A stretch of DNA of 61,832 nucleotides from an uncultured Clostridia bacterium (lineage in GTDB: Bacteria > Bacillota > Clostridia > Christensenellales > CAG-314), in assembly GCA_947630425.1 (NCBI GenBank), contig CANRHN010000004.1:1-61832 (forward strand). The letters run 5' to 3'. The translations under genes were made by a program, and so were the position numbers. Positions 1 to 41,295 of this stretch are shown here, piece after piece. The notes beneath the pieces are model-generated. The model was not told the origin of the DNA. It did not search any database and saw only the letters and a program-made list of their open reading frames with translations. Position 1 is the first letter of the stretch. Every line of letters starts with the position of its first letter.

Positions 1-3000
1 ACCGTCAAGGTGAAGGTCTTGCTGCCTTCGTAGTTTTTGTCCTCTATGGTGACTGTTACCGTGTAAACCTTGCTTTCTGTGATGGAAGCAGGATCTACCT
101 TGGCGGAAAGAGTACCTTGTCCGTCAACAAGCAAAATTGCGTTTGCCGTCAACGGGAGCGGGTCTCCGTTGTAGGTGTAGGGTTGCGGTTCTTGTTCGTT
201 GAAGGGCTCTCCGTTCACATTGAGTATGAACACAACTTCTTCGTCCGTCAACTGCTTTTTGTGTACCGTGTAAGTACCCGCTGTTCCGCCTTCGTAACTG
301 CCTGTAAAGGTTACGGTATAGTCGTTGTTGTCGTAGCTTGCCTCTATTGCGTACTTGCCTGCGTCACTAATGGACGGTTTGGTGAGTTGTACGTTCAAAA
401 CGCTTGTGTTTTCGCCGTAAGCCATTGTAAAGTCGCTTGCAAGCTTCCAACCGTCGGAAGCGAACTTGTAGTTGTGGTTTTCCTCGTAGCTCCAAGTGTC
501 GTTCTGATCTTCCACTTCCACCGTGATGGGACGAGCAGTTACCGTGTAGTTGCCTGTTTCGCCCTGCACCAACGTGTAGTTGGCAAGGTCGTTCTTTTTG
601 ATGTTGATTGTAATTGGGTGATTGCCTACGTGCGGCTGTCCTTCAAAGGCGTCGCAAACGAGTTCTACATAGGCGCTGTCAATAATGACTGTGCCTTTGT
701 CTTTTTCCACAATGCCTTCCACGCTGAATTGAGGAACGTTGACATTCTCTCCGTAGACGGAAGTTGCTCTCTGCAAATTTACGTTTACGGTCAGGGTGGC
801 TTTGCCGATGTTCAGCACCGCTGTTTTCTCGCCCTTAAAGTTGCCCTTACCCGTTACCGTCAGAGTGACTTGTCCTGCGCTTGTTCTGTCGCCGCTGCGG
901 TCGTCCGTTACGGTGTACTCCGAAGAGTCAAGCGTAAGCGCGCCTGCCTTTACAACCAACGTGGGCATTTGAACCTCGCCGTTGTAGGTATACCCGCCTT
1001 GAACGGTAACGCTGTCAATCGTGGTTTTTTCAATTTGAATGGTCGCTGTCTGACGTCCCGTAAAGTTGCCTTTTCCTTCAACCGTGAACACCACCGTGCC
1101 CTCGTTTGTTACGTCGCCGCGGCGGTTGTCCGTCACGTTGTACTCCGAAGAGTCGAGCGTAAGCGTTCCTGCCTTTACAACAAGCGTGGGCCGCTTGGGT
1201 TGACGGTCAAAGACAAAGCTTTGTTCTTCAACCTTTACGCTGTCGATTGTTGCCGCAGTGATGTTGAATGTTGTTTGCGCGCTGCCCGTGTAGTTACCCT
1301 TGTTTGCGGTAACGGTCACGGTGACCGTGCCCACATTGGTAAAGTCGTCCTTGTCCGCACTGTAGGTCACGGTGTACTCGCTTGGCGAAAGTTTCAATTC
1401 GCCTACGCTTACGGAAGAAGGAACGGGCTTGTGTTCGTTACGGTCGAAGGTGACGTTTCCCACTCCGCCAATCGTTGCGCCTGCAATGCTCTTGGCTGTA
1501 ATTTGGTAACTTACGGAAACTTCGCCCTTGAAGTTGCCTTTGCCCGTAACTGTGACGGTGACAGTGCCCGCGTCGGTACAATTGCCGCCGAAAGTTACTT
1601 TGTAGTCGTCGTCAAGCTGCAGCGTTTTTCCGCCGAAGGTTACAGTGGGTTGTTGCTGTTGGGCAGCTCCGTTGTACTCAACGTCCTTGGGCGCTTGAAC
1701 GTTGGAATTTTCCAACGCAACCGCTTCTACCACAAACATGGCTTCGACCCATTGCACTTTGTAGTTGCCGCTGTCCTTGCCACTCACCTCGTGAGTGATT
1801 GCCGTGCTGCCAACGTCGGTAAGCTGGGCAGAGCTTAACGTAAAGGTAACAACGTCGCCATCGACAATTGCGTCGGCTGCCAAGTCGTAGTACTCCGCGC
1901 CGTTTTTCGCCTGTTGCGCGCTTCCGTTGTAAGGCACTTTTTGCTCATGAACGGTTACGGTTACTTCCTTTTGCTTGATGTTTACTTGACGACGCAACGT
2001 TTGCGGGTGGTAGCTTTCCAACGTCAAGGTTATTTCCACGTCGTAAGTGCCAACAGCTTTGGGGTTGCCCTCAATTTGTTGACCTTGTTGTTTGTACACA
2101 ATGACCACATCGGTGCTGTCGGGCGCGCCCTTGACGGTGACAGTGTGTTCTTTGCCGTCGTAGGTAACTTCGCCGTCGCCTTCTGTCGTCACGCCTGCAA
2201 ACACCTGCGCCGTTACCGTGTAAATGCCGTTGTTGAGTTTGACTTCGTAGTTGGAAAGTTGTCCTCTTACACCCTCATCCAAGGTGAGAATGATGTTTAT
2301 TTGGTCGTTTGCTTTGGCGGACGCAAGGTCGGATTCGAGCGCGGCGTGCAAACCGCCTTCCAGCGTTTGCTTGTCCGTGCCGTACATTTCGCCCGCAATC
2401 TGCCAAGTAAGCTCAAGCTGATCTTCGCCCTCGGGGGACTCTTTGTTGTCCGCCGTTACCGTTACCTGTGCGGGGGTAATTTCGAAGGAACTTTGTACCG
2501 TTCCGCTGAAGTTGCCCTTGAACGTAAGCGTAAAGTTGACCGTGCCAACGTTTGTGCGGTCGGCGTCTGCTGCATAGCCAAGCGTGTAGTCGTTTGCCGT
2601 TACAGTGAAGCCTTGGAGCGAAACGCTGAAGGAAACATCCTTTTGCGTGTTGTCGTACACATAGCTTCCGCTGACGTTTACCGTCGCTTGAGAAGCGTCT
2701 TTGGCTTGGATCGTGAAGGAGATCACTTTTTCTCCCGTGTAGTTGCCAACGCCTTTGACAGTGACCGTGCCGTTTTCCGCAACGTTTGTGTTGCCGCCGT
2801 AGCTGACGGTATAGTCTTTGTCGTTGCCAAGCACAAGCTCGTTGCCGTCAAACTGCACCGTCACGTCGGGACGAATTGCGCTGCCCGTGTAGGTGTAGGT
2901 TGCGTTCACTCCCGTAATTTCCACTTCGGGGTCGCTTACATTCTTTGCCAAAATGGTAAAGCTGCCTTTTGCCGAGCCTTGGTAGTTACCCTTAAAGCTG

Positions 3001-6000
3001 ACGGTCACTTCCACTTTGCCCGCATTTACAAGTCCGTCGGGGCTGAACGTTACGTCGTAGTCTGTTTGCTCGACAAGGGGCACTTCAAAGCCCTCAAGCT
3101 GCACTTTGACAGTAGGCGTTTGCTTTTTGCCGTTGTAGGTGTAGCTGCCCTCGACGGAAACGGTGGCTTTAGACATATCTTTGGCAGTAATATCGAAGCT
3201 AAGCTCAATTGTGCCCGTGTAGTTGTTTGTGCCGCTGATGGTGATTGTGCCGTTTTCCTCTACCGTGGTGTTGTTGCCGTAGTTGACGGTATAGTCTTGT
3301 TCAAAGTTCAACGTGCGTTGTTTGAGCGTTACGGAGTAGATGACAGGCTGTATGGCTGCGCCCGTGTACTCCTTGTCGCCCTGGTCCCAAGACACTTCCG
3401 CTTCGTGAAGAGAAAGAGGATCGATTGTAAAGTGCAACGTGACTGTGCCTTGCACGTTGTCGCCGATACCCGTCACCGTTACAGTGGCTTGTCCGGCGTT
3501 GGTGTTTTCCGAATAGTTCACGGAGTAGTCGCTACCGTAAGCAAGCGCGTTGCCGTTAATCGTTACGGTGACGTCCTTGGTGATTGCCGAACCCGTGTAT
3601 GTTTCGTTGCCCGTGTTGCAGCTTACGTTTTCTTGAGTCAACGTGGCTTTTTGCACTTTTATTTTCAGGGTGAGACTGCTGTTGCGAGAGGCAGACACGT
3701 CCGAACTGCTTGCAAAGAAACCTTTTGACAACGTTACCGTAATGTCGTAGCCGTCCGCGTTTACGTTTTTAATTGTTTGGTGAGCCAAAGTTGCGCCCGC
3801 TTTTGACAGGTCGTAGTCGCCAAACAGCTTGGAAATGGCAGCCAACAGCTCTTCGTCCGACAAGTCCGCGCCCGTAAAGGTGATGTCGCCCCAGCTCTCG
3901 GGAGTGTACAGCAACTCGCGCGTTTCTTCCTGCGCGCAGCCCAACTCCGTGCATTTACGGGTGATTGTTGTGTGCTTGCTTGACTCGTCGGGGAGATCGT
4001 CTCCTTCTTGATAGGTCCAATCGTAAACGTGTTCGCTGTGTTCCAACGCCCAAGCGCCTTGCAAACCTGCAGCATCGTCTGTCTTTTTCTCTCCGAGTGT
4101 GTGACCCGAGCCATGTCCGCTTGGCTTTACGCCTGCTGTAGCCGTTTCATATTTGAACGTAATTCCGGGCAACGTAAAGCCGGCGGCATTGGTGACGCTT
4201 TTGTACGTGCAACCCTCTTTCAGTTCTGCCATTGTGTTGTGTGCAACATCCCACACGTGCGCAACCAATGTGTACTCTGTGTAGTTGCAGGAATATTCGG
4301 TGGAAACGCCGTCAAAAAGACTTGCTTGCAGCGTTACGCCCGTGCCGACAACTATCTTTGCCGTGCCCGTTGCGTCGTTTGTTTGTACTGTGCCGACAAA
4401 TGTTGCGCCGTCCTGAATGTTCAGCGTGCCATTGACAACGAGGCTTGCATAGGGCTTGTACCCCGCATCCTTAAGTTGAGTTCCTGTGGGGTAAGTACGC
4501 TTGTCTAATTCCGGAATGTAGAAACTGTCATAGATGTGCAGTCCCGCCCCGCCGCGCACATTGAGAGTTGCGCCGCTTTCGACGGTGAGTACCGAACCGG
4601 GCATCGCCTTGTAGGGGTAGAGAATGTCGAACGTGCCGCTTTTTAACGTGATTTCGTAGTTGTACGGAATGGAGAAGTACACCTTTGTGGTGTTTATTCC
4701 AAGCGGAAATTCCATATAACCGGCATAGGCGTTGCCTGAAATTTCAATCGTCGTCTTGCCCGCGTCTTGCGCATTGTTGCCGCTTCCCATGTTGGGTTTC
4801 AAATGGTCGTCGTCATAGACGATGTGTGCATACGCGTCAAAGTTAAGAATTATAAGCGCGTTGTTTTCAAAGTAGTCTATGCCGTCCCTACTATCGTTGA
4901 CATAGGAGATGAAGGGCTGCTCAATTGTCGTGATACTCGAAAGGAAGAAAAGACTTGCGTGTCCCCACAGTTCTGCGCCGTGACGAATGGTAAAGCCGCC
5001 CTTGTTTTGCACGTTGATCATGGCGTACATTTTGAAGGGAGTTACGCCCGCATTGAAGGATGCTTGCGTGTTTGTACCGCCGTTGTAGTCAAGTATCATA
5101 AAGGGCTGAGTAAGTTTGCCGCCAGACGTCACGTCGATACTGCCTTCGCCCGTTACGCGCCCGTACAAATTGAGATGTCCGCCCTTTCCGACGGTAACTT
5201 TGGTTTTTGCGTCTTCCAAGATGAGTTGTGAATAGTAGCCGGAAGTAAGCCCTTGTGCAACCTGTTCGGGGTAGTGAAGCACGCCGCCGACAATAAGATT
5301 GCCGTTGATTGTGTTTTCTCCGTTGAGCGTAAGGACGTAGATCGGGTCTTTGTAAATGCTGTCCGAATTCCAAGAAACGCGTGTTTGCGCAGTTGTTGCA
5401 GTGCCCACTGCATAGTAGTCGCCCGCACGGTTAAAAGGAATTACAAGATTGACGTTAGACGGAAGGTTGATTGAGGACAAGGTAACGCTGTCAACCACAA
5501 CAACATTTTTGTCGCTTCCGACTGCCGCGGCAGTAAATGCCGTTTCAACTTCGTCCAACTTGTAGAATTTGTTACCGTTACGCACGGCATAGGTATATTC
5601 ATCGTCAATGACAGCGACTATTTTTACAAAGCCAGAACCGAGAGCAATGTGATATTCCGTTTCAAAAGATACGAGTTGCGCTTCGTTCACATTCCATTCA
5701 ATATCTTCACTCGTTGCACTGCTCGGTTCTTTGCTGCTTGTTCCGTGGATTAGTTTCCAACCGTAGAAACGATGTCCGTCAGTGGGTTGTGCTTTGAACG
5801 TGAGCGTAGTGCCGGCGGCAACCTTCCCCGCCTTTTCTGCGCCTGTTACTAAAACTTCGCTATCTTGCGCATTTTCTCCTTCAACGCCCCACTCTGCATA
5901 CGCGTCGCCCGTAAAGAATGTTACATTACGAATTGTGAAGCGGTTTTCGACCTTTGAACTTCCCGTAGCAACCACAAAATAGACTGTATCACTCTCCAAG

Positions 6001-8084
6001 GCACTTGTTGTACCAAGCGGTACAGTTACTTTAAGCCAACCACCATTTGTCGTTTTTTCAATTTGCGTAACTTCAAATGCAGCAGAAATAACACCATTCG
6101 TAGAATCTTTCCACGCAAACGGTTCATCGGGATCAGAAGAAGCTAAATTGTATATATGGTGTTCAAAAATAGGTGGCGTACTATTTTTCTTGTTCGGCAC
6201 AAATCCATGCGTCGTACCTGTCTTGACATTGGCAGAGAAGTGCGTACTAGCCAATGTTCTTGTTAAATCGATTGGATCAAGAGTATAGCCCAACCAACCA
6301 TAACGATAGTTGCCATTATTATTACCCTCTACCAAAATTTCAAAGGAAAGGCTTCCTGCTTCTTCTGCTTGAAATCCAATATAGGACGTTGCCCTCGTGC
6401 CGCCGCCACCTGTAAGTGAAGAAGAAAACGCATAGGCTTCTCCGTCATTGTAAGCAGGGTCAAAATACCATGCATCGGCATCTTTCGTGAGTACCGTAAT
6501 CGGATCGGAAGCGGAAGAAACAACATCGTTTATTGAATTGTGGGGAGATTGAATGCTGATTTCGTATGTAAACGAAGTCGCATAATACTCTGTACCATAG
6601 TTCGGCGCAATGACTACTGTCGAATTTTCTTTTGTATCTACGAGATTGAAACCGTACTTGCCGTCAACAAAAGTGTAGCCTCTGTCACCTGCGCCTTCAC
6701 CGGTATCTTCAACCGCACCAAGCGGTTTTCCATTCAATGTAATGGTAAATTCCTGATTTGCAACTTCCTTCTTGGCGGGCGACTGCTTAATTGAAAAGAG
6801 CAAATTGCTCGTTACGCCATAAGGAAGTGTGAGTTTGTCGCCGTCATGAATTTCGACCGTATCTTGACTTCCACTTATGGTTTTTGTGAGCGTCACGTCC
6901 GGAAGAACAGCAATCTCTTGGAAATCTACGATAATTTTATTTACATGCGGTTGATTATACTCCCAATAAATTCCATCTGTTTCGATATTAGAAGTCAACC
7001 AACTTTCATCCTTAACAGACGAACCCGCATCCAAATTGTTTATTTTCGTTTCATCAAAATAGCCGACAAAATGCGTGCTTGTCTTTTTGTTGGGGTCGAT
7101 TGTCGATGTTATGGTTTTGGGAACAGCCAAGAAATTGGTTTTTGTTCCCTGTGCCAACTTAAACGGAACTCCGCTGTCAATTCGAGTTCCACGTGCCAAA
7201 ATTACTTCTTGAGACAATTCTCGTTGCACTCCGTCCATATAGTAAACATCGCAGAAATCTTCGTTGTATTCCAATGTAATTTCCGTTTTGTTCTTGAACA
7301 AATCAGAGGAAACCGTCGAGAATTGATTAAAGAAAAAACTGCATGCGGCATCCATATTAGAACATGTAAGCCATATTTCCACTCGATGATAACCATCGCC
7401 GTGAGTTCTCAAAAGTGGTATAAATTGTTTCCAATCCTGACCATAGCTATAATATGTTATTCCATCTATGTCTACCTTTACTGTGCCGGTATACCCGTAT
7501 TCACTAGCAACATAAGTACTACTCTCGAAGTAAAATGAGAAATATCTATCACCCGTAAATTCCAAAACTACGGCAGGCGTATTCATTTTAATGCCTATAA
7601 CTTTTGATATTTGCAAAGTATATGTTTTGTCATCTTCTTGCTCCGGAGTGTCGCTTTCCGTCCAATAGCTCGCATCAAACGAAACTGTGGGAGCAGCTTC
7701 GTCGTTCTTTTCAAAGAACTTTGCGTTTAAGGTTGCTTCGGCTGCGGGCATGGTGTAAGAATAGGTCGCTTCGTACGAAAGCGGCGTGTTTACGTCCGTT
7801 TCGTACCAATATGCGAACACGTAGCCCTCTGAAGGCAACGCTTTGAGCGTTACGGTTGCGCCGGATTCCACAGACTTTTCGACATAAGCGTCCGTTGTGT
7901 TTCCGGACGGATCTCCCTCGTCGATTTGCACGGTGCCGTTGCCTTGGGTAACAGCTTTTAGCGTAAATTGTTCCGCGTGAGCTTCACTCGGAAAAATGGC
8001 GGTTACGCCCAGCACCACAAGCGAAGCGGCAAGCAGCACACACAACGTAACAAGCGTCCATTTCCATTGTCTTGTTTTTGTCAT
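1..8084 (-). CDS. Giant secreted/surface adhesin-like protein, at least 2,694 aa, truncated by the window edge (signal peptide, divergent InlB B-repeat-like domains, many MBG/Ig-like stalk repeats)
   Basis: Not in the ORF track because the frame has no stop inside the window. Manual reverse-complement translation from ATG 8084 (RBS GGAGG upstream) starts MTKTRQWKWTLVTLCVLLAASLVVLGVTAIFPSEAHA-EQFTL (SPase I-type signal) and stays open to base 1. No track ORF in 1-8084 uses this frame, consistent with no internal stop. Repeats include YTGSAITKDVTVTINGNALAYGSDYSVNYSENTNAGQATVTVTG, ITPAQVTVTADNKE and YDGKEHTVTVKG. Domain names are from motif recall. Confidence 0.9.
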   Translation of the reverse strand, partial: MTKTRQWKWTLVTLCVLLAASLVVLGVTAIFPSEAHAEQFTLKAVTQGNGTVQIDEGDPSGNTTDAYVEKSVESGATVTLKALPSEGYVFAYWYETDVNTPLSYEATYSYTMPAAEATLNAKFFEKNDEAAPTVSFDASYWTESDTPEQEDDKTYTLQISKVIGIKMNTPAVVLEFTGDRYFSFYFESSTYVASEYGYTGTVKVDIDGITYYSYGQDWKQFIPLLRTHGDGYHRVEIWLTCSNMDAACSFFFNQFSTVSSDLFKNKTEITLEYNEDFCDVYYMDGVQRELSQEVILARGTRIDSGVPFKLAQGTKTNFLAVPKTITSTIDPNKKTSTHFVGYFDETKINNLDAGSSVKDESWLTSNIETDGIYWEYNQPHVNKIIVDFQEIAVLPDVTLTKTISGSQDTVEIHDGDKLTLPYGVTSNLLFSIKQSPAKKEVANQEFTITLNGKPLGAVEDTGEGAGDRGYTFVDGKYGFNLVDTKENSTVVIAPNYGTEYYATSFTYEISIQSPHNSINDVVSSASDPITVLTKDADAWYFDPAYNDGEAYAFSSSLTGGGGTRATSYIGFQAEEAGSLSFEILVEGNNNGNYRYGWLGYTLDPIDLTRTLASTHFSANVKTGTTHGFVPNKKNSTPPIFEHHIYNLASSDPDEPFAWKDSTNGVISAAFEVTQIEKTTNGGWLKVTVPLGTTSALESDTVYFVVATGSSKVENRFTIRNVTFFTGDAYAEWGVEGENAQDSEVLVTGAEKAGKVAAGTTLTFKAQPTDGHRFYGWKLIHGTSSKEPSSATSEDIEWNVNEAQLVSFETEYHIALGSGFVKIVAVIDDEYTYAVRNGNKFYKLDEVETAFTAAAVGSDKNVVVVDSVTLSSINLPSNVNLVIPFNRAGDYYAVGTATTAQTRVSWNSDSIYKDPIYVLTLNGENTINGNLIVGGVLHYPEQVAQGLTSGYYSQLILEDAKTKVTVGKGGHLNLYGRVTGEGSIDVTSGGKLTQPFMILDYNGGTNTQASFNAGVTPFKMYAMINVQNKGGFTIRHGAELWGHASLFFLSSITTIEQPFISYVNDSRDGIDYFENNALIILNFDAYAHIVYDDDHLKPNMGSGNNAQDAGKTTIEISGNAYAGYMEFPLGINTTKVYFSIPYNYEITLKSGTFDILYPYKAMPGSVLTVESGATLNVRGGAGLHIYDSFYIPELDKRTYPTGTQLKDAGYKPYASLVVNGTLNIQDGATFVGTVQTNDATGTAKIVVGTGVTLQASLFDGVSTEYSCNYTEYTLVAHVWDVAHNTMAELKEGCTYKSVTNAAGFTLPGITFKYETATAGVKPSGHGSGHTLGEKKTDDAAGLQGAWALEHSEHVYDWTYQEGDDLPDESSKHTTITRKCTELGCAQEETRELLYTPESWGDITFTGADLSDEELLAAISKLFGDYDLSKAGATLAHQTIKNVNADGYDITVTLSKGFFASSSDVSASRNSSLTLKIKVQKATLTQENVSCNTGNETYTGSAITKDVTVTINGNALAYGSDYSVNYSENTNAGQATVTVTGIGDNVQGTVTLHFTIDPLSLHEAEVSWDQGDKEYTGAAIQPVIYSVTLKQRTLNFEQDYTVNYGNNTTVEENGTITISGTNNYTGTIELSFDITAKDMSKATVSVEGSYTYNGKKQTPTVKVQLEGFEVPLVEQTDYDVTFSPDGLVNAGKVEVTVSFKGNYQGSAKGSFTILAKNVSDPEVEITGVNATYTYTGSAIRPDVTVQFDGNELVLGNDKDYTVSYGGNTNVAENGTVTVKGVGNYTGEKVISFTIQAKDASQATVNVSGSYVYDNTQKDVSFSVSLQGFTVTANDYTLGYAADADRTNVGTVNFTLTFKGNFSGTVQSSFEITPAQVTVTADNKESPEGEDQLELTWQIAGEMYGTDKQTLEGGLHAALESDLASAKANDQINIILTLDEGVRGQLSNYEVKLNNGIYTVTAQVFAGVTTEGDGEVTYDGKEHTVTVKGAPDSTDVVIVYKQQGQQIEGNPKAVGTYDVEITLTLESYHPQTLRRQVNIKQKEVTVTVHEQKVPYNGSAQQAKNGAEYYDLAADAIVDGDVVTFTLSSAQLTDVGSTAITHEVSGKDSGNYKVQWVEAMFVVEAVALENSNVQAPKDVEYNGAAQQQQPTVTFGGKTLQLDDDYKVTFGGNCTDAGTVTVTVTGKGNFKGEVSVSYQITAKSIAGATIGGVGNVTFDRNEHKPVPSSVSVGELKLSPSEYTVTYSADKDDFTNVGTVTVTVTANKGNYTGSAQTTFNITAATIDSVKVEEQSFVFDRQPKRPTLVVKAGTLTLDSSEYNVTDNRRGDVTNEGTVVFTVEGKGNFTGRQTATIQIEKTTIDSVTVQGGYTYNGEVQMPTLVVKAGALTLDSSEYTVTDDRSGDRTSAGQVTLTVTGKGNFKGEKTAVLNIGKATLTVNVNLQRATSVYGENVNVPQFSVEGIVEKDKGTVIIDSAYVELVCDAFEGQPHVGNHPITINIKKNDLANYTLVQGETGNYTVTARPITVEVEDQNDTWSYEENHNYKFASDGWKLASDFTMAYGENTSVLNVQLTKPSISDAGKYAIEASYDNNDYTVTFTGSYEGGTAGTYTVHKKQLTDEEVVFILNVNGEPFNEQEPQPYTYNGDPLPLTANAILLVDGQGTLSAKVDPASITESKVYTVTVTIEDKNYEGSKTFTLT

Positions 8085-8163
8085 AGTTCCTCCAATTTGC
8101 TTTGCATTTGTATTTTTGTAAAATGTATATAGTATATGGACGGGCAAACAGCCCGTACTGTTA

Positions 8164-8200
8164 ATGATACCCCCCCCCCCCCCCCCCGACGATTTGTCAA
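8164..8200 (-). promoter_or_regulatory. SigmaA-type promoter of the giant gene with a G18 homopolymer in the -35/-10 spacer (candidate phase-variable promoter)
   Basis: The minus strand reads TTGACA (8200-8195), aatcgtc + G18 (8187-8170), TATCAT (8169-8164). The spacer is 25 bp and would be 17 bp with G10. Confidence 0.75.
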
Positions 8201-8331
8201 CAAATTAAGGCATATTTAAGTAAAATTTTTTCAAATTTTTTTTCAGCAAAGGCGGAAAATTTTTCAAAAAGTTGCAAAAGCACAAAAAGGAACGCTGTTG
8301 CGCTAAACATATTTTGGAAAAAGGACATCAA

Positions 8332-8369: not shown

Positions 8370-8407
8370 ACAACTATTCATTTTGGTTGATGGTTATGCT
8401 TTTTTGC

Positions 8408-8437: not shown

Positions 8438-8779
8438 CTATTTGTCAAGCTCGGAATGTTTGCCAAGACTTTTTCGCTTTGCTGCGTCCACCACCAAAAG
8501 CAGCACAAGCAACGGGCTGAAAACAACAAAAATCACATACACCGCTGTCACTTCGATAGCCGTACACCATTGGCGAAAACCTTTTACGGAAGTTTTGCCG
8601 CGACAAAAAATCAACGCGACAAAGGGCTGGGCGACAAGTGCAAACGCCGCCGCACCGAAAAGAACGTAGCTTGCAACGGGAAACTGCCGCAGCAAACAGC
8701 CCGCCGTCACCGCGCAGGCGACAACAAGCAAAAACAAAACATAAAAAATTGTCCGACACAAAAGATCCTTGTTTTTCAT
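8438..8779 (-). CDS. Hypothetical membrane protein (113 aa, about 3 TM)
   Basis: ATG ORF co-oriented directly after truA, with three hydrophobic stretches. Confidence 0.6.
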   Translation of the reverse strand: MKNKDLLCRTIFYVLFLLVVACAVTAGCLLRQFPVASYVLFGAAAFALVAQPFVALIFCRGKTSVKGFRQWCTAIEVTAVYVIFVVFSPLLVLLLVVDAAKRKSLGKHSELDK

Positions 8780-41169: not shown

Positions 41170-41295
41170 TAACCGCGCCGACTTTTGCGCTGCGCAAAAT
41201 GCCACAGTTTGGCGGCGTAAACGTCACTTCGCCCCCCCCCCATTCAACACTATCGAGTGAAAAGCTCCTTTGTGTCGAAACTCATATTATATAAA

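What the first reader, a model, noticed from the sequence alone, without database searches (positions are those of the whole stretch)
8084..8200. Poly-G contingency switch in the promoter spacer of a giant adhesin gene
Seen: on the minus strand, about 80 nt upstream of the ATG at 8084, a perfect -35 (TTGACA) and a near-consensus -10 (TATCAT) are separated by aatcgtc + G18, a 25-bp spacer. Five other consensus promoters listed here (rnpB, glyQS, MFS, MAG1210-like, DUF896) have 17-bp spacers, and G10 would give this one the same. Established: homopolymer length changes in promoter spacers cause phase variation of surface antigens (e.g. Neisseria porA, Mycoplasma vlp). Inference: this is a slipped-strand ON/OFF or rheostat switch for a very costly surface protein (at least 2,694 aa), captured OFF here. 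I do not recall such switches being described for this type of gut Clostridia lineage.
Basis: partly seen in the sequence, partly recalled or inferred. Interest (0 to 1): 0.8.

Follow-up and report, generated by a model that had tools for sequence, protein, structure and literature searches.

The report
Hypervariable poly-G promoter switch, giant adhesin
A run of 18 G's stretches the promoter of a giant surface-protein gene in an uncultured gut Clostridia bacterium; near-identical strains carry 6, 12 or 18 G's, so it is very probably a classical slippage switch, one of about 14 in this genome, in a group where such switches seem not to have been described.

Summary
On the minus strand, TTGACA (8200-8195), aatcgtc, G18 (8187-8170) and TATCAT (8169-8164) lie 80 nt upstream of a 2,694-codon open frame.

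The tract is hypervariable. Two other assemblies of the same species match 3.35-3.47 kb of the window with 0 and 4 mismatches but carry G12 and G6. A 93%-identical strain has G11, and a fourth contig breaks inside the tract.

Ordinary promoters of this genome use a 17-bp spacer (101 cases, against 20 at 16 bp and 16 at 18 bp). Two paralogous adhesin promoters have the same boxes with 7 nt + G10 = 17. G18 gives 25 bp, so the promoter is predicted OFF. That step is inferred.

The tract is not a one-off. G/C runs in the genome are bimodal in length. About 14 of the 23 runs of 7 nt or more sit in promoter spacers, mostly before lipoprotein, LRR, zinc-ribbon membrane and giant adhesin genes. Three more are intragenic. 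The motif occurs in 37 of 47 genomes of the genus and patchily across the order.

The mechanism is the known Neisseria porA/opc kind in a new lineage.

The parts
8195..8200 (-). -35 hexamer TTGACA
   Evidence: Read. The same hexamer with the same upstream sequence occurs at the paralogous promoters C11:362 and C18:12774.
8188..8194 (-). Non-G part of the spacer (aatcgtc, 7 nt)
   Evidence: It is identical in the conspecific contigs L097, L099 and L023.
8170..8187 (-). Hypervariable poly-G tract, G18 in this assembly (C18 on the plus strand)
   Evidence: Conspecific assemblies with otherwise identical flanks have G6 (L097) and G12 (L099). L023 has at least 9 G and then the contig ends. A 93%-identical strain (L102) has G11.
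8164..8169 (-). -10 hexamer TATCAT, directly abutting the G run
   Evidence: TATCAT or TATNNT lies flush with the G run in most of the 59 sites read in nine other species and in the homologous genes.
8201..8262 (-). A/T-rich upstream region with A-tracts, UP-element-like
   Evidence: About 50 nt of it are 94% identical to the regions upstream of the C11 and C18 paralogous promoters. The UP-element function is inferred.
8085..8157 (-). Predicted 5' UTR (TSS inferred near 8157) with a 5'-terminal hairpin at 8140-8156 and the RBS GGAGG at 8089-8093
   Evidence: fold -12.5 kcal/mol, z = -0.9, not significant. No Rfam family reached its gathering score. The TSS is inferred from the position of the -10.
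3..8084 (-). Giant surface-protein gene, at least 2,694 aa, cut by the contig start. It has a Sec signal peptide, an InlB B-repeat (Flg_new_2) domain, a central Gly/Thr/Asn-rich region and MBG-type repeats.
   Evidence: The paralogue on C18 (2,513 aa) ends about 130 aa after the point where C4 breaks and has a C-terminal hydrophobic anchor. The adhesin function is inferred from this architecture.
8403..8403 (.). Boundary of a strain-variable segment. In three 98%-identical strains homology ends here, and a 149-aa lipoprotein gene plus a peptidase M29 gene follow instead of the promoter and adhesin.
   Evidence: The alternative neighbours map to the end of own contig C11 (40309-37789).
8438..8779 (-). 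Upstream 113-aa ORF with no family match, used as the anchor to find conspecific contigs

Best explanation
The G run is a slipped-strand (simple-sequence) contingency tract that forms most of the spacer between a consensus -35 and a near-consensus -10 of a sigma-A-type promoter.

Replication slippage changes the number of G's. This changes the -35/-10 distance while the -10-proximal sequence (GGG-TATCAT) stays constant. With 7 fixed nucleotides, G10 gives the 17-bp spacer that this genome's ordinary promoters use, G9 and G11 give 16 and 18 bp (reduced activity), and anything else is effectively OFF.

In this assembly (G18, 25 bp) the giant surface-protein gene is predicted to be silent. The other alleles sampled give 13, 19 and 19 bp and are also predicted silent or weak.

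The locus is one of about 14 promoter-embedded and 3 intragenic G tracts in the genome. Together they should let each cell line express a different subset of lipoproteins, LRR proteins and giant adhesins.

Shown here: the anatomy, the hypervariability between near-identical strains, the 17-bp preference of ordinary promoters, and the genome- and genus-wide recurrence.

Inferred: that transcription depends on tract length, that switching is fast and reversible within a clone, and that the protein is an adhesin.
For: - Anatomy.
- Hypervariability at this locus: L099 matches window 9290-5932 (3,353 nt) with 0 mismatches and one gap, the tract (G12 against G18). L097 matches 3,470 nt with 4 mismatches and one gap (G6). 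L102, a 93%-identical strain, has TTGACA-aattcgat-G11-TATCAT. L023 ends inside the tract.
- Hypervariability at other loci of the same species: C33 locus, G10 five times and G9 once; C16 locus, G9 against G10; C9 locus, G9, G9 and G10, all with identical or near-identical flanks.
- Spacer optimum: ordinary promoters of the form TTGACA...TAtaaT number 101 at 17 bp, 20 at 16 bp and 16 at 18 bp, with about 4 at other lengths. G-tract promoters are spread over 14-25 bp, with four each at 17 and 19 bp.
- Paralogous promoters C11:362 and C18:12774 have the same boxes with 7 nt + G10 = 17 bp.
- No alternative canonical promoter upstream of the gene.
- Non-random placement: G/C run lengths are bimodal. 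About 14 of the 23 runs of 7 nt or more lie between a -35 and a -10. Downstream genes are lipoproteins (6 of 13, against about 8% of all genes), BspA-type LRR, collagen-like, zinc-ribbon membrane and giant Sec-signal proteins.
- Conservation: homologous MTKTRQWKW-type genes in eight other species carry TTGACA-N6-9-G8-11-TATCAT. The motif TTGACA-N0-11-G8 occurs in 37 of 47 genomes of the genus, with 3 hits in total for the reversed-pattern control, and in 53 of 301 genomes of the order.
- Classical translational phase variation coexists in the genome: C5:14033 G8 splits a 1,627-aa lipoprotein gene, and G9 would restore the frame.
Against:
- None of the four or five sampled alleles is in the predicted ON range, so an ON state of this promoter has not been observed.
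- The conspecific assemblies have only 2-3x coverage, so each length rests on a few reads and may be off by 1-2.
- Across the genus the G run is about 9 nt whatever the length of the non-G part, so total spacers peak at 18-19 bp rather than 17 bp. Either most loci sit in low states, or the optimum for G-rich spacers is shifted, which would move the predicted ON length.
- G runs lie on the sense strand about 15 times more often than C runs. Pure spacing does not predict this.
- Mismatch repair is present in the genus, so the high instability is not explained by loss of MMR.
Confidence: 0.75

Rival explanations
1. The tract is a hypermutable but functionally neutral homopolymer. The gene is transcribed from the -10 alone, from a -10 helped by the G at -14, or from another signal, so tract length does not matter and the length differences are mutational noise.
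For: - The lengths 6, 12 and 18 look unconstrained.
- The G-run length does not compensate for the length of the non-G spacer across the genus.
- The effect on transcription was not measured.
Against: - A neutral run would be broken by point mutations. Instead, uninterrupted runs are kept at the same place in promoters of homologous genes in at least 9 species.
- G/C runs of 6-7 nt are almost absent from the genome, while runs of 8-10 nt are concentrated in spacers between consensus boxes.
- Ordinary promoters show a strict 17-bp rule, so a perfect TTGACA would be pointless if spacing were irrelevant.
Confidence: 0.1
2. The number 18 is an assembly or sequencing artefact. The true tract in this strain is shorter, for example 10-12, because Illumina chemistry and assemblers handle long G runs poorly. 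The 'OFF' call for this genome would then be wrong, even if the switch is real.
For: - Reads could not be checked.
- Contigs often break at these tracts: own C12 end, L008, L023, L095 and several genus genomes.
- G18 is the longest tract seen anywhere in the genus.
Against: - The tract is internal to a 61.8-kb contig, with unique sequence on both sides.
- An 18-nt run is shorter than the usual assembly k-mers, so reads spanning both flanks must have carried about that many G's (inference).
- Independent assemblies show that the locus really ranges from 6 to 12 or more.
Confidence: 0.15
3. The G run acts through a structure or a bound factor rather than through spacing. It could be a G-quadruplex or A-form stretch on the non-template strand, or the site of a poly-G/C-binding regulator, with run length modulating that interaction.
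For: - There is a strong strand asymmetry: on the forward strand, where each site is counted once, about 123 G-run sites against about 8 C-run sites in 47 genomes.
- The run is nearly always flush against the -10.
- G15 or longer could in principle fold into a quadruplex (own knowledge).
Against: - Typical runs of 8-10 G are too short for an intramolecular quadruplex.
- No candidate binding protein was identified.
- The asymmetry can also be explained by the G at -14 of the extended -10 region, or by descent from a common promoter cassette.
- The run always lies between two consensus boxes, which points to spacing.
Confidence: 0.05

Closest known systems
Neisseria meningitidis porA (poly-G) and opc (poly-C) promoter phase variation (van der Ende et al. 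1995; Sarkari et al. 1994, cited from own knowledge; opc spacing mechanism summarised in PMC13742949)
   Same: A G/C homopolymer lies between the -35 and the -10 of a surface-protein promoter. Slippage changes the spacer length and gives high, intermediate or no expression. Strains carry different lengths.
   Different: Here the host is a Gram-positive-type, uncultured gut Clostridia commensal. The run lies flush against the -10. About 14 promoters per genome carry one. Alleles at this locus span 6-18 G, far outside the functional window. The effect on expression is not measured here.
Treponema pallidum tpr and tp0126 poly-G tracts upstream of the promoter or TSS (Giacani et al., own knowledge; see also PMC7864442)
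   Same: Poly-G runs of variable length lie in front of several paralogous surface-protein genes. Length differs between and within strains and sets the transcription level.
   Different: Different phylum. In Treponema the tracts are not uniformly placed between consensus sigma-70 boxes. Here the placement is stereotyped.
Mycoplasma hyorhinis vlp poly-A promoter-spacer switches (Yogev et al. 1991; Citti and Wise 1995, own knowledge)
   Same: A family of lipoprotein genes, each with its own homopolymer in the -35/-10 spacer, gives combinatorial surface variation in a small-genome Firmicutes-related organism.
   Different: Poly-A rather than poly-G. A wall-less pathogen. A single clustered gene family rather than dispersed, unrelated surface genes.
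Campylobacter jejuni poly-G phasome (e.g. PMC13317227)
   Same: The genome has a bimodal G-run length distribution, with about 20-30 runs of 8-13 G controlling surface structures.
   Different: Campylobacter tracts are mostly intragenic (frame shifting), and the organism lacks MutS/MutL mismatch repair. Here most tracts are in promoter spacers, and MutS is present in 43 of 47 genomes of the genus.
Invertible promoters of Clostridioides difficile and gut Bacteroides (reviewed in PMC11868660)
   Same: Stochastic ON/OFF control of surface and other genes in gut anaerobes. The same genome also has a candidate inverton according to an earlier, unchecked note.
   Different: That mechanism is recombinase-mediated inversion, not slippage of a repeat.

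Membership tests
Promoter-spacer homopolymer contingency locus (porA/opc type) | An uninterrupted homopolymer lies between recognisable -35 and -10 hexamers. | tested here: met
   TTGACA-aatcgtc-G18-TATCAT. The boxes score 11 of 12.
Promoter-spacer homopolymer contingency locus (porA/opc type) | Tract length differs between otherwise (near-)identical strains. | tested here: met
   G18, G12 and G6, with 0 and 4 mismatches in 3.35 and 3.47 kb; G11 in a 93%-identical strain. Three other loci of the species vary by one G.
Promoter-spacer homopolymer contingency locus (porA/opc type) | Several lengths coexist within one population, with reversible high-frequency switching. | not testable with these tools
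The only indirect hint is contigs that break at the tracts.
Promoter-spacer homopolymer contingency locus (porA/opc type) | Transcription level depends on tract length, with an optimum at the canonical spacer. | not testable with these tools
   Inferred from the 17-bp optimum of ordinary promoters and from the paralogues with G10 = 17 bp. No RNA data.
Promoter-spacer homopolymer contingency locus (porA/opc type) | The controlled gene encodes a surface-exposed or host-interaction product. | tested here: met
   Signal peptide plus Flg_new_2 and MBG domains. The paralogue has a C-terminal anchor. Exposure itself is inferred.
Multi-locus phasome | Many independent hypermutable tracts per genome, over-represented relative to expectation. 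| tested here: met
   Bimodal run-length distribution with 22 runs of 8 nt or more. About 14 are in promoters and 3 are intragenic. The motif is in 37 of 47 genomes of the genus, with near-zero hits for the reversed control.
Campylobacter/Helicobacter-type MMR-less poly-G hypermutability | Absence of MutS1/MutL mismatch repair. | tested here: not met
   The MutS_I domain is in 43 of 47 genomes of the genus. It is missing from the own MAG only as part of a roughly 40-kb unassembled block that also holds pheT.

The most novel reading that the evidence does not exclude
An uncultured, small-genome, mismatch-repair-proficient genus of gut Clostridia, and patchily other families of its order, controls much of its surface proteome through a stereotyped promoter design. 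In this design a sense-strand G run of 8-10 nt lies flush against the -10 of a consensus sigma-A promoter. There are roughly 5-30 such promoters per genome, so each lineage shows a combinatorial, heritable but reversible set of lipoproteins, LRR proteins and giant adhesins. This would be an SSR-based counterpart of the Bacteroides inverton system, so far undescribed for commensal Firmicutes. The strand bias and the -10-flush placement would then reflect a design rule: G at -14 is kept constant, and only the -35 distance varies.
Probability: 0.55. Interest if true: 0.7.

Novelty: new member of a known kind. Interest (0 to 1): 0.55.

Why it matters
Phase variation in gut commensals is currently known mainly from invertible promoters (Bacteroides, C. 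difficile). If abundant uncultured Clostridia also vary their surface through dozens of slippery promoters, three things follow.

- Strain-level metagenomics will misread expression potential, because identical gene content can hide different ON/OFF states.
- MAG assemblies will break at these sites.
- Host-microbe and phage-microbe interactions of these organisms will be heterogeneous within a clone.

The locus also gives a concrete and easily testable case. It has three natural alleles (G6, G12, G18) on an otherwise identical 3.4-kb background in front of a gene of about 2,800 codons, and that gene is absent altogether from other strains.

Tried and rejected
- Two scans of JGI metagenome contigs. 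The exact promoter with a variable gap gave nothing. The shared upstream 24-mer gave one chance match without a G tract.
- Search for conspecific N-terminal fragments of the adhesin: only one 38%-identical protein. The genome-contig scan gave one 53%-identical homologue, from a rabbit MAG.
- Loss of mismatch repair as the cause of instability. The own MAG has no mutS or mutL. However, the whole syntenic block of about 40 kb, including the essential pheT, is missing just past the end of contig C21. This is an assembly gap, and the rest of the genus has MutS. Rejected.
- Known RNA element in the 5' UTR: no Rfam family reached its gathering score, and the fold is not significant.
- Structure or family naming of the protein beyond Pfam: no PDB or NCBIfam match.
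- Compensation between the non-G spacer length and the G-run length across species: none is apparent by eye in the tables. This weakens any claim that the assembled states are tuned to 17 bp.
- First TruA look-up with my own start codon failed. It was solved through cluster members.
Full report
**1. Observation**

Reading the minus strand gives TTGACA (8200-8195), aatcgtc (8194-8188), 18 G (8187-8170), TATCAT (8169-8164), GGAGG (8093-8089) and ATG (8084). The spacer is 25 bp. The frame from 8084 down to base 3 is open for 2,694 codons and leaves the contig, since the window is contig C4:1-61832 of a 48-contig, 1.44-Mb, 49% G+C genome.

The protein starts with a Sec-type signal peptide. It has an InlB B-repeat (Flg_new_2) domain and MBG repeats but no PDB or NCBIfam match. 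A 2,513-aa paralogue on C18 shares the last part of the sequence at 88% DNA identity. This explains the contig break. The paralogue continues for about 130 aa into a C-terminal hydrophobic anchor.

The consensus scan finds no canonical 16-18-bp promoter on the minus strand between 8900 and 7900. No known RNA family lies in the leader. A 5'-terminal hairpin (8140-8156) is present but not statistically remarkable.

**2. The tract is one of a class**

G/C homopolymer lengths in the genome are bimodal:

| Run length (nt) | 5 | 6 | 7 | 8 | 9 | 10 | 12 | 18 |
|---|---|---|---|---|---|---|---|---|
| Number of runs | 806 | 20 | 1 | 3 | 7 | 10 | 1 | 1 |

Printing all 23 runs of 7 nt or more in G orientation and scoring the boxes gives the following.
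- Twelve runs lie between a perfect TTGACA and a TAnnnT -10. Eleven are read as poly-G and one (C5:25198) as poly-C.
- Two more are likely promoter tracts: C16:33366 with a TTGACG -35, and C12:40076 at a contig end.
- The total spacers of the twelve scored promoters are 16 (1), 17 (4), 18 (2), 19 (3), 20 (1) and 25 (1).

The genes downstream are:
- six lipoproteins, including BspA-type LRR, collagen-like and Flg_new/Big_2 proteins;
- giant Sec-signal proteins of 8,649, 2,513 and at least 2,694 aa, plus the C11 paralogue, whose gene runs off the contig start;
- two zinc-ribbon membrane proteins;
- one ABC ATPase and one membrane protein.

A lipobox occurs in 6 of 13 of these genes, against about 8% of crude gene calls genome-wide.

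Three further tracts are intragenic. C5:14033 (G8) splits a lipoprotein gene into 101 and 1,518 aa, and G9 would give 1,627 aa. C20:17071 (G9) is in frame. C10:43119 affects only the C-terminus.

**3. What spacer the polymerase wants**

Ordinary promoters (TTGACA plus at least 5 of 6 of TATAAT, no G run) are distributed as follows: 16 bp 20, 17 bp 101, 18 bp 16, every other length from 12 to 26 bp between 1 and 8. The rule is therefore sharp.

Two paralogous adhesin promoters (C11:362 and C18:12774) share about 50 nt of upstream sequence with the C4 promoter and have 7 nt + G10 = 17 bp. Hence G10 is the predicted optimum at this locus, and G18 is predicted OFF. This step is inference. No expression data exist.

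**4. Decisive comparison: the same locus in other samples**

The identical 113-aa protein encoded just upstream (window 8438-8779) served as the anchor. It led to seven further contigs.

| Contig | Source | Match to the window | Tract or outcome |
|---|---|---|---|
| L099 | ERZ27249386, 3.2x coverage | 3,353 nt (9290-5932), 0 mismatches, one gap | G12 |
| L097 | ERZ27249395, 2.3x coverage | 3,470 nt, 4 mismatches, one gap | G6 |
| L102 | ERZ27249136 | 93% identical | TTGACA-aattcgat-G11-TATCAT (19 bp) |
| L023 | ERZ27249389 (found earlier) | same promoter | stops after 9 G |
| L096, L098, L101 | three Logan contigs | 98% identical | lack promoter and adhesin altogether |

In the three Logan contigs homology ends at 8403. 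A 149-aa lipoprotein gene and a peptidase M29 gene follow, and these map to the end of own contig C11. The seventh contig, L100, diverges from the window just after the 113-aa ORF into a different arrangement. The adhesin region is therefore a strain-variable insert.

The tract is thus the only indel in about 3.4 kb between near-identical genomes, and it differs by 6 and 12 nt. That is the signature of a hypermutable repeat.

Other loci of the same species also vary:
- C33 locus: G10 in five assemblies and G9 in one;
- C16 locus: G9 (own) against G10, and a Logan contig that starts one base after the tract;
- C9 locus: G9, G9 and G10.

All these assemblies have 2-4x coverage, so the lengths may be off by one or two. 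A range of 6 to 18 cannot be explained by errors of that size.

**5. Conservation**

Homologous genes with the N-terminus MTKTRQWKW in eight other species of the genus carry TTGACA-N6-9-G8-11-TATCAT, giving total spacers of 16-19 bp.

The motif TTGACA-N0-11-G8 occurs in 37 of 47 genomes of the genus. There are 123 sites on the forward strand alone, where each site is counted once. The reversed-pattern control gives 3 hits in total. In the order the motif is found in 53 of 301 genomes and 32 of 150 genera, patchily, again with a near-zero control.

I read 59 sites in nine species.
- Most are TTGACA + 9-10 nt + G8-10 with TATNNT directly after the run. Spacers are 17-19 bp, with the mode at 18.
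- A second class has the run directly after the -35.
- Downstream genes are again mostly lipoproteins and zinc-ribbon membrane proteins.
- Orthologous promoters differ by one G between species, for example G8/G9, G9/G10 and G9/G9/G10.

C runs in the same position are about 15 times rarer: about 17 sites in all, 8 on the forward strand.

**6. Mechanism and caveats**

The best reading is the classical one. Slippage in the run changes the -35/-10 distance and so sets the promoter ON, dim or OFF. G18 is a deep OFF state.

All sampled alleles (13, 19, 19 and 25 bp) lie outside the predicted ON window, and some strains lack the gene entirely. This fits a costly gene that is usually silent. Once silent, the tract can drift freely, and the longer it is the faster it drifts.

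Four things remain unexplained:
- the three lengths differ by exactly 6;
- the G run is almost always on the sense strand and flush with the -10 (it may supply the G at -14 of the extended -10 region, or reflect a shared cassette);
- the modal total spacer in the genus is 18-19 bp rather than 17 bp;
- runs of 6-7 nt are nearly absent from the genome.

Mismatch repair is not lost in the lineage. MutS_I is found in 43 of 47 genomes of the genus. The own MAG lacks mutS and mutL only because a block of about 40 kb that also contains pheT is unassembled.

**7. Comparison with what is known**

The mechanism matches Neisseria porA/opc, Treponema tpr/tp0126 poly-G and Mycoplasma vlp poly-A promoter switches (own knowledge; opc is summarised in PMC13742949). 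The genome-wide pattern resembles the Campylobacter poly-G phasome, but here the tracts are promoter-based and the lineage is MMR-proficient.

Two recent reviews list only inversion systems for Clostridia and gut commensals (PMC11868660; PMC13742949). Four full-text searches found no description of promoter poly-G switches in gut Clostridia.

Earlier unchecked notes of this scan report similar promoters in other uncultured gut Firmicutes and in Saccharibacteria. They are leads, not evidence, but they suggest the design is widespread.

**8. Verdict**

Hypervariability is shown; the effect on expression is inferred. This is a new member of a known kind, and it gains interest from its scale and its lineage.

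The organism can only be described as an uncultured Clostridia genus with small genomes. The one named relative is a rabbit-gut MAG.

Noticed in passing
window 41232-41241: A second G10 run (minus strand) lies about 85 nt upstream of the MFS transporter gene's own TTGAAA-17-TGgTATAAT promoter and just after a terminator. It is not in a recognisable spacer. A tiny frame, GTG TTG AAT GGG GGG GGG GCG AAG TGA, runs through it.
   Followed up: partly
window 8403 and own contig C11:37789-40309: The promoter plus giant adhesin is a strain-variable insert. Three 98%-identical strains go straight from the 113-aa ORF to a 149-aa lipoprotein gene and a peptidase M29 gene, which in this genome lie at the end of contig C11.
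   Followed up: partly
own genome C5:14033-14040, C20:17071-17079, C10:43119-43127: These are intragenic G runs. G8 splits a 1,627-aa lipoprotein gene (OFF here; G9 would restore the frame). G9 is in frame in a 467-aa membrane protein (one G more or fewer truncates it to about 135 aa). G9 near the 3' end of a 1,546-aa lipoprotein gene changes only the tail.
   Followed up: yes
own genome, after the end of C21 (27,406); G004:C8:52.7-92 kb: A block of about 40 kb that is syntenic in a relative is missing from this MAG, although CheckM-type completeness is 97.5%. The block holds miaB, mutS, mutL, miaA, a mutS2-like gene and pheT. This is an assembly or binning gap, not a gene loss.
   Followed up: yes
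own genome C2:24139-24147 and C2:24175-50253: An 8,649-aa Sec-signal protein gene sits behind a TTGACA-8 nt-G9-TATATT promoter with a 17-bp spacer, predicted ON. A homologue in G053 has G10, which gives 19 bp.
   Followed up: partly
contig ends: own C12:40076-40087; L008:1-11; L023 end; L095 start; G054:C10, G054:C15, G169:C53, G295:C77: Many contigs of this genus and of conspecific assemblies end exactly in or next to a promoter poly-G run. This suggests that the runs break short-read assemblies, either through length heterogeneity or through poor read quality.
   Followed up: no
own genome C11:530-970 and many other contigs: The region just upstream of the C11 adhesin promoter consists of a dispersed repeat family present on more than 15 contigs. 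It is probably the two-hairpin repeat described in earlier notes on this genome.
   Followed up: no
window 8441-8779 against L023:666-881: The small upstream ORF is 113 aa in most strains. In one conspecific contig it is 72 aa, because of an internal deletion of about 100 nt (window 8560-8660).
   Followed up: no
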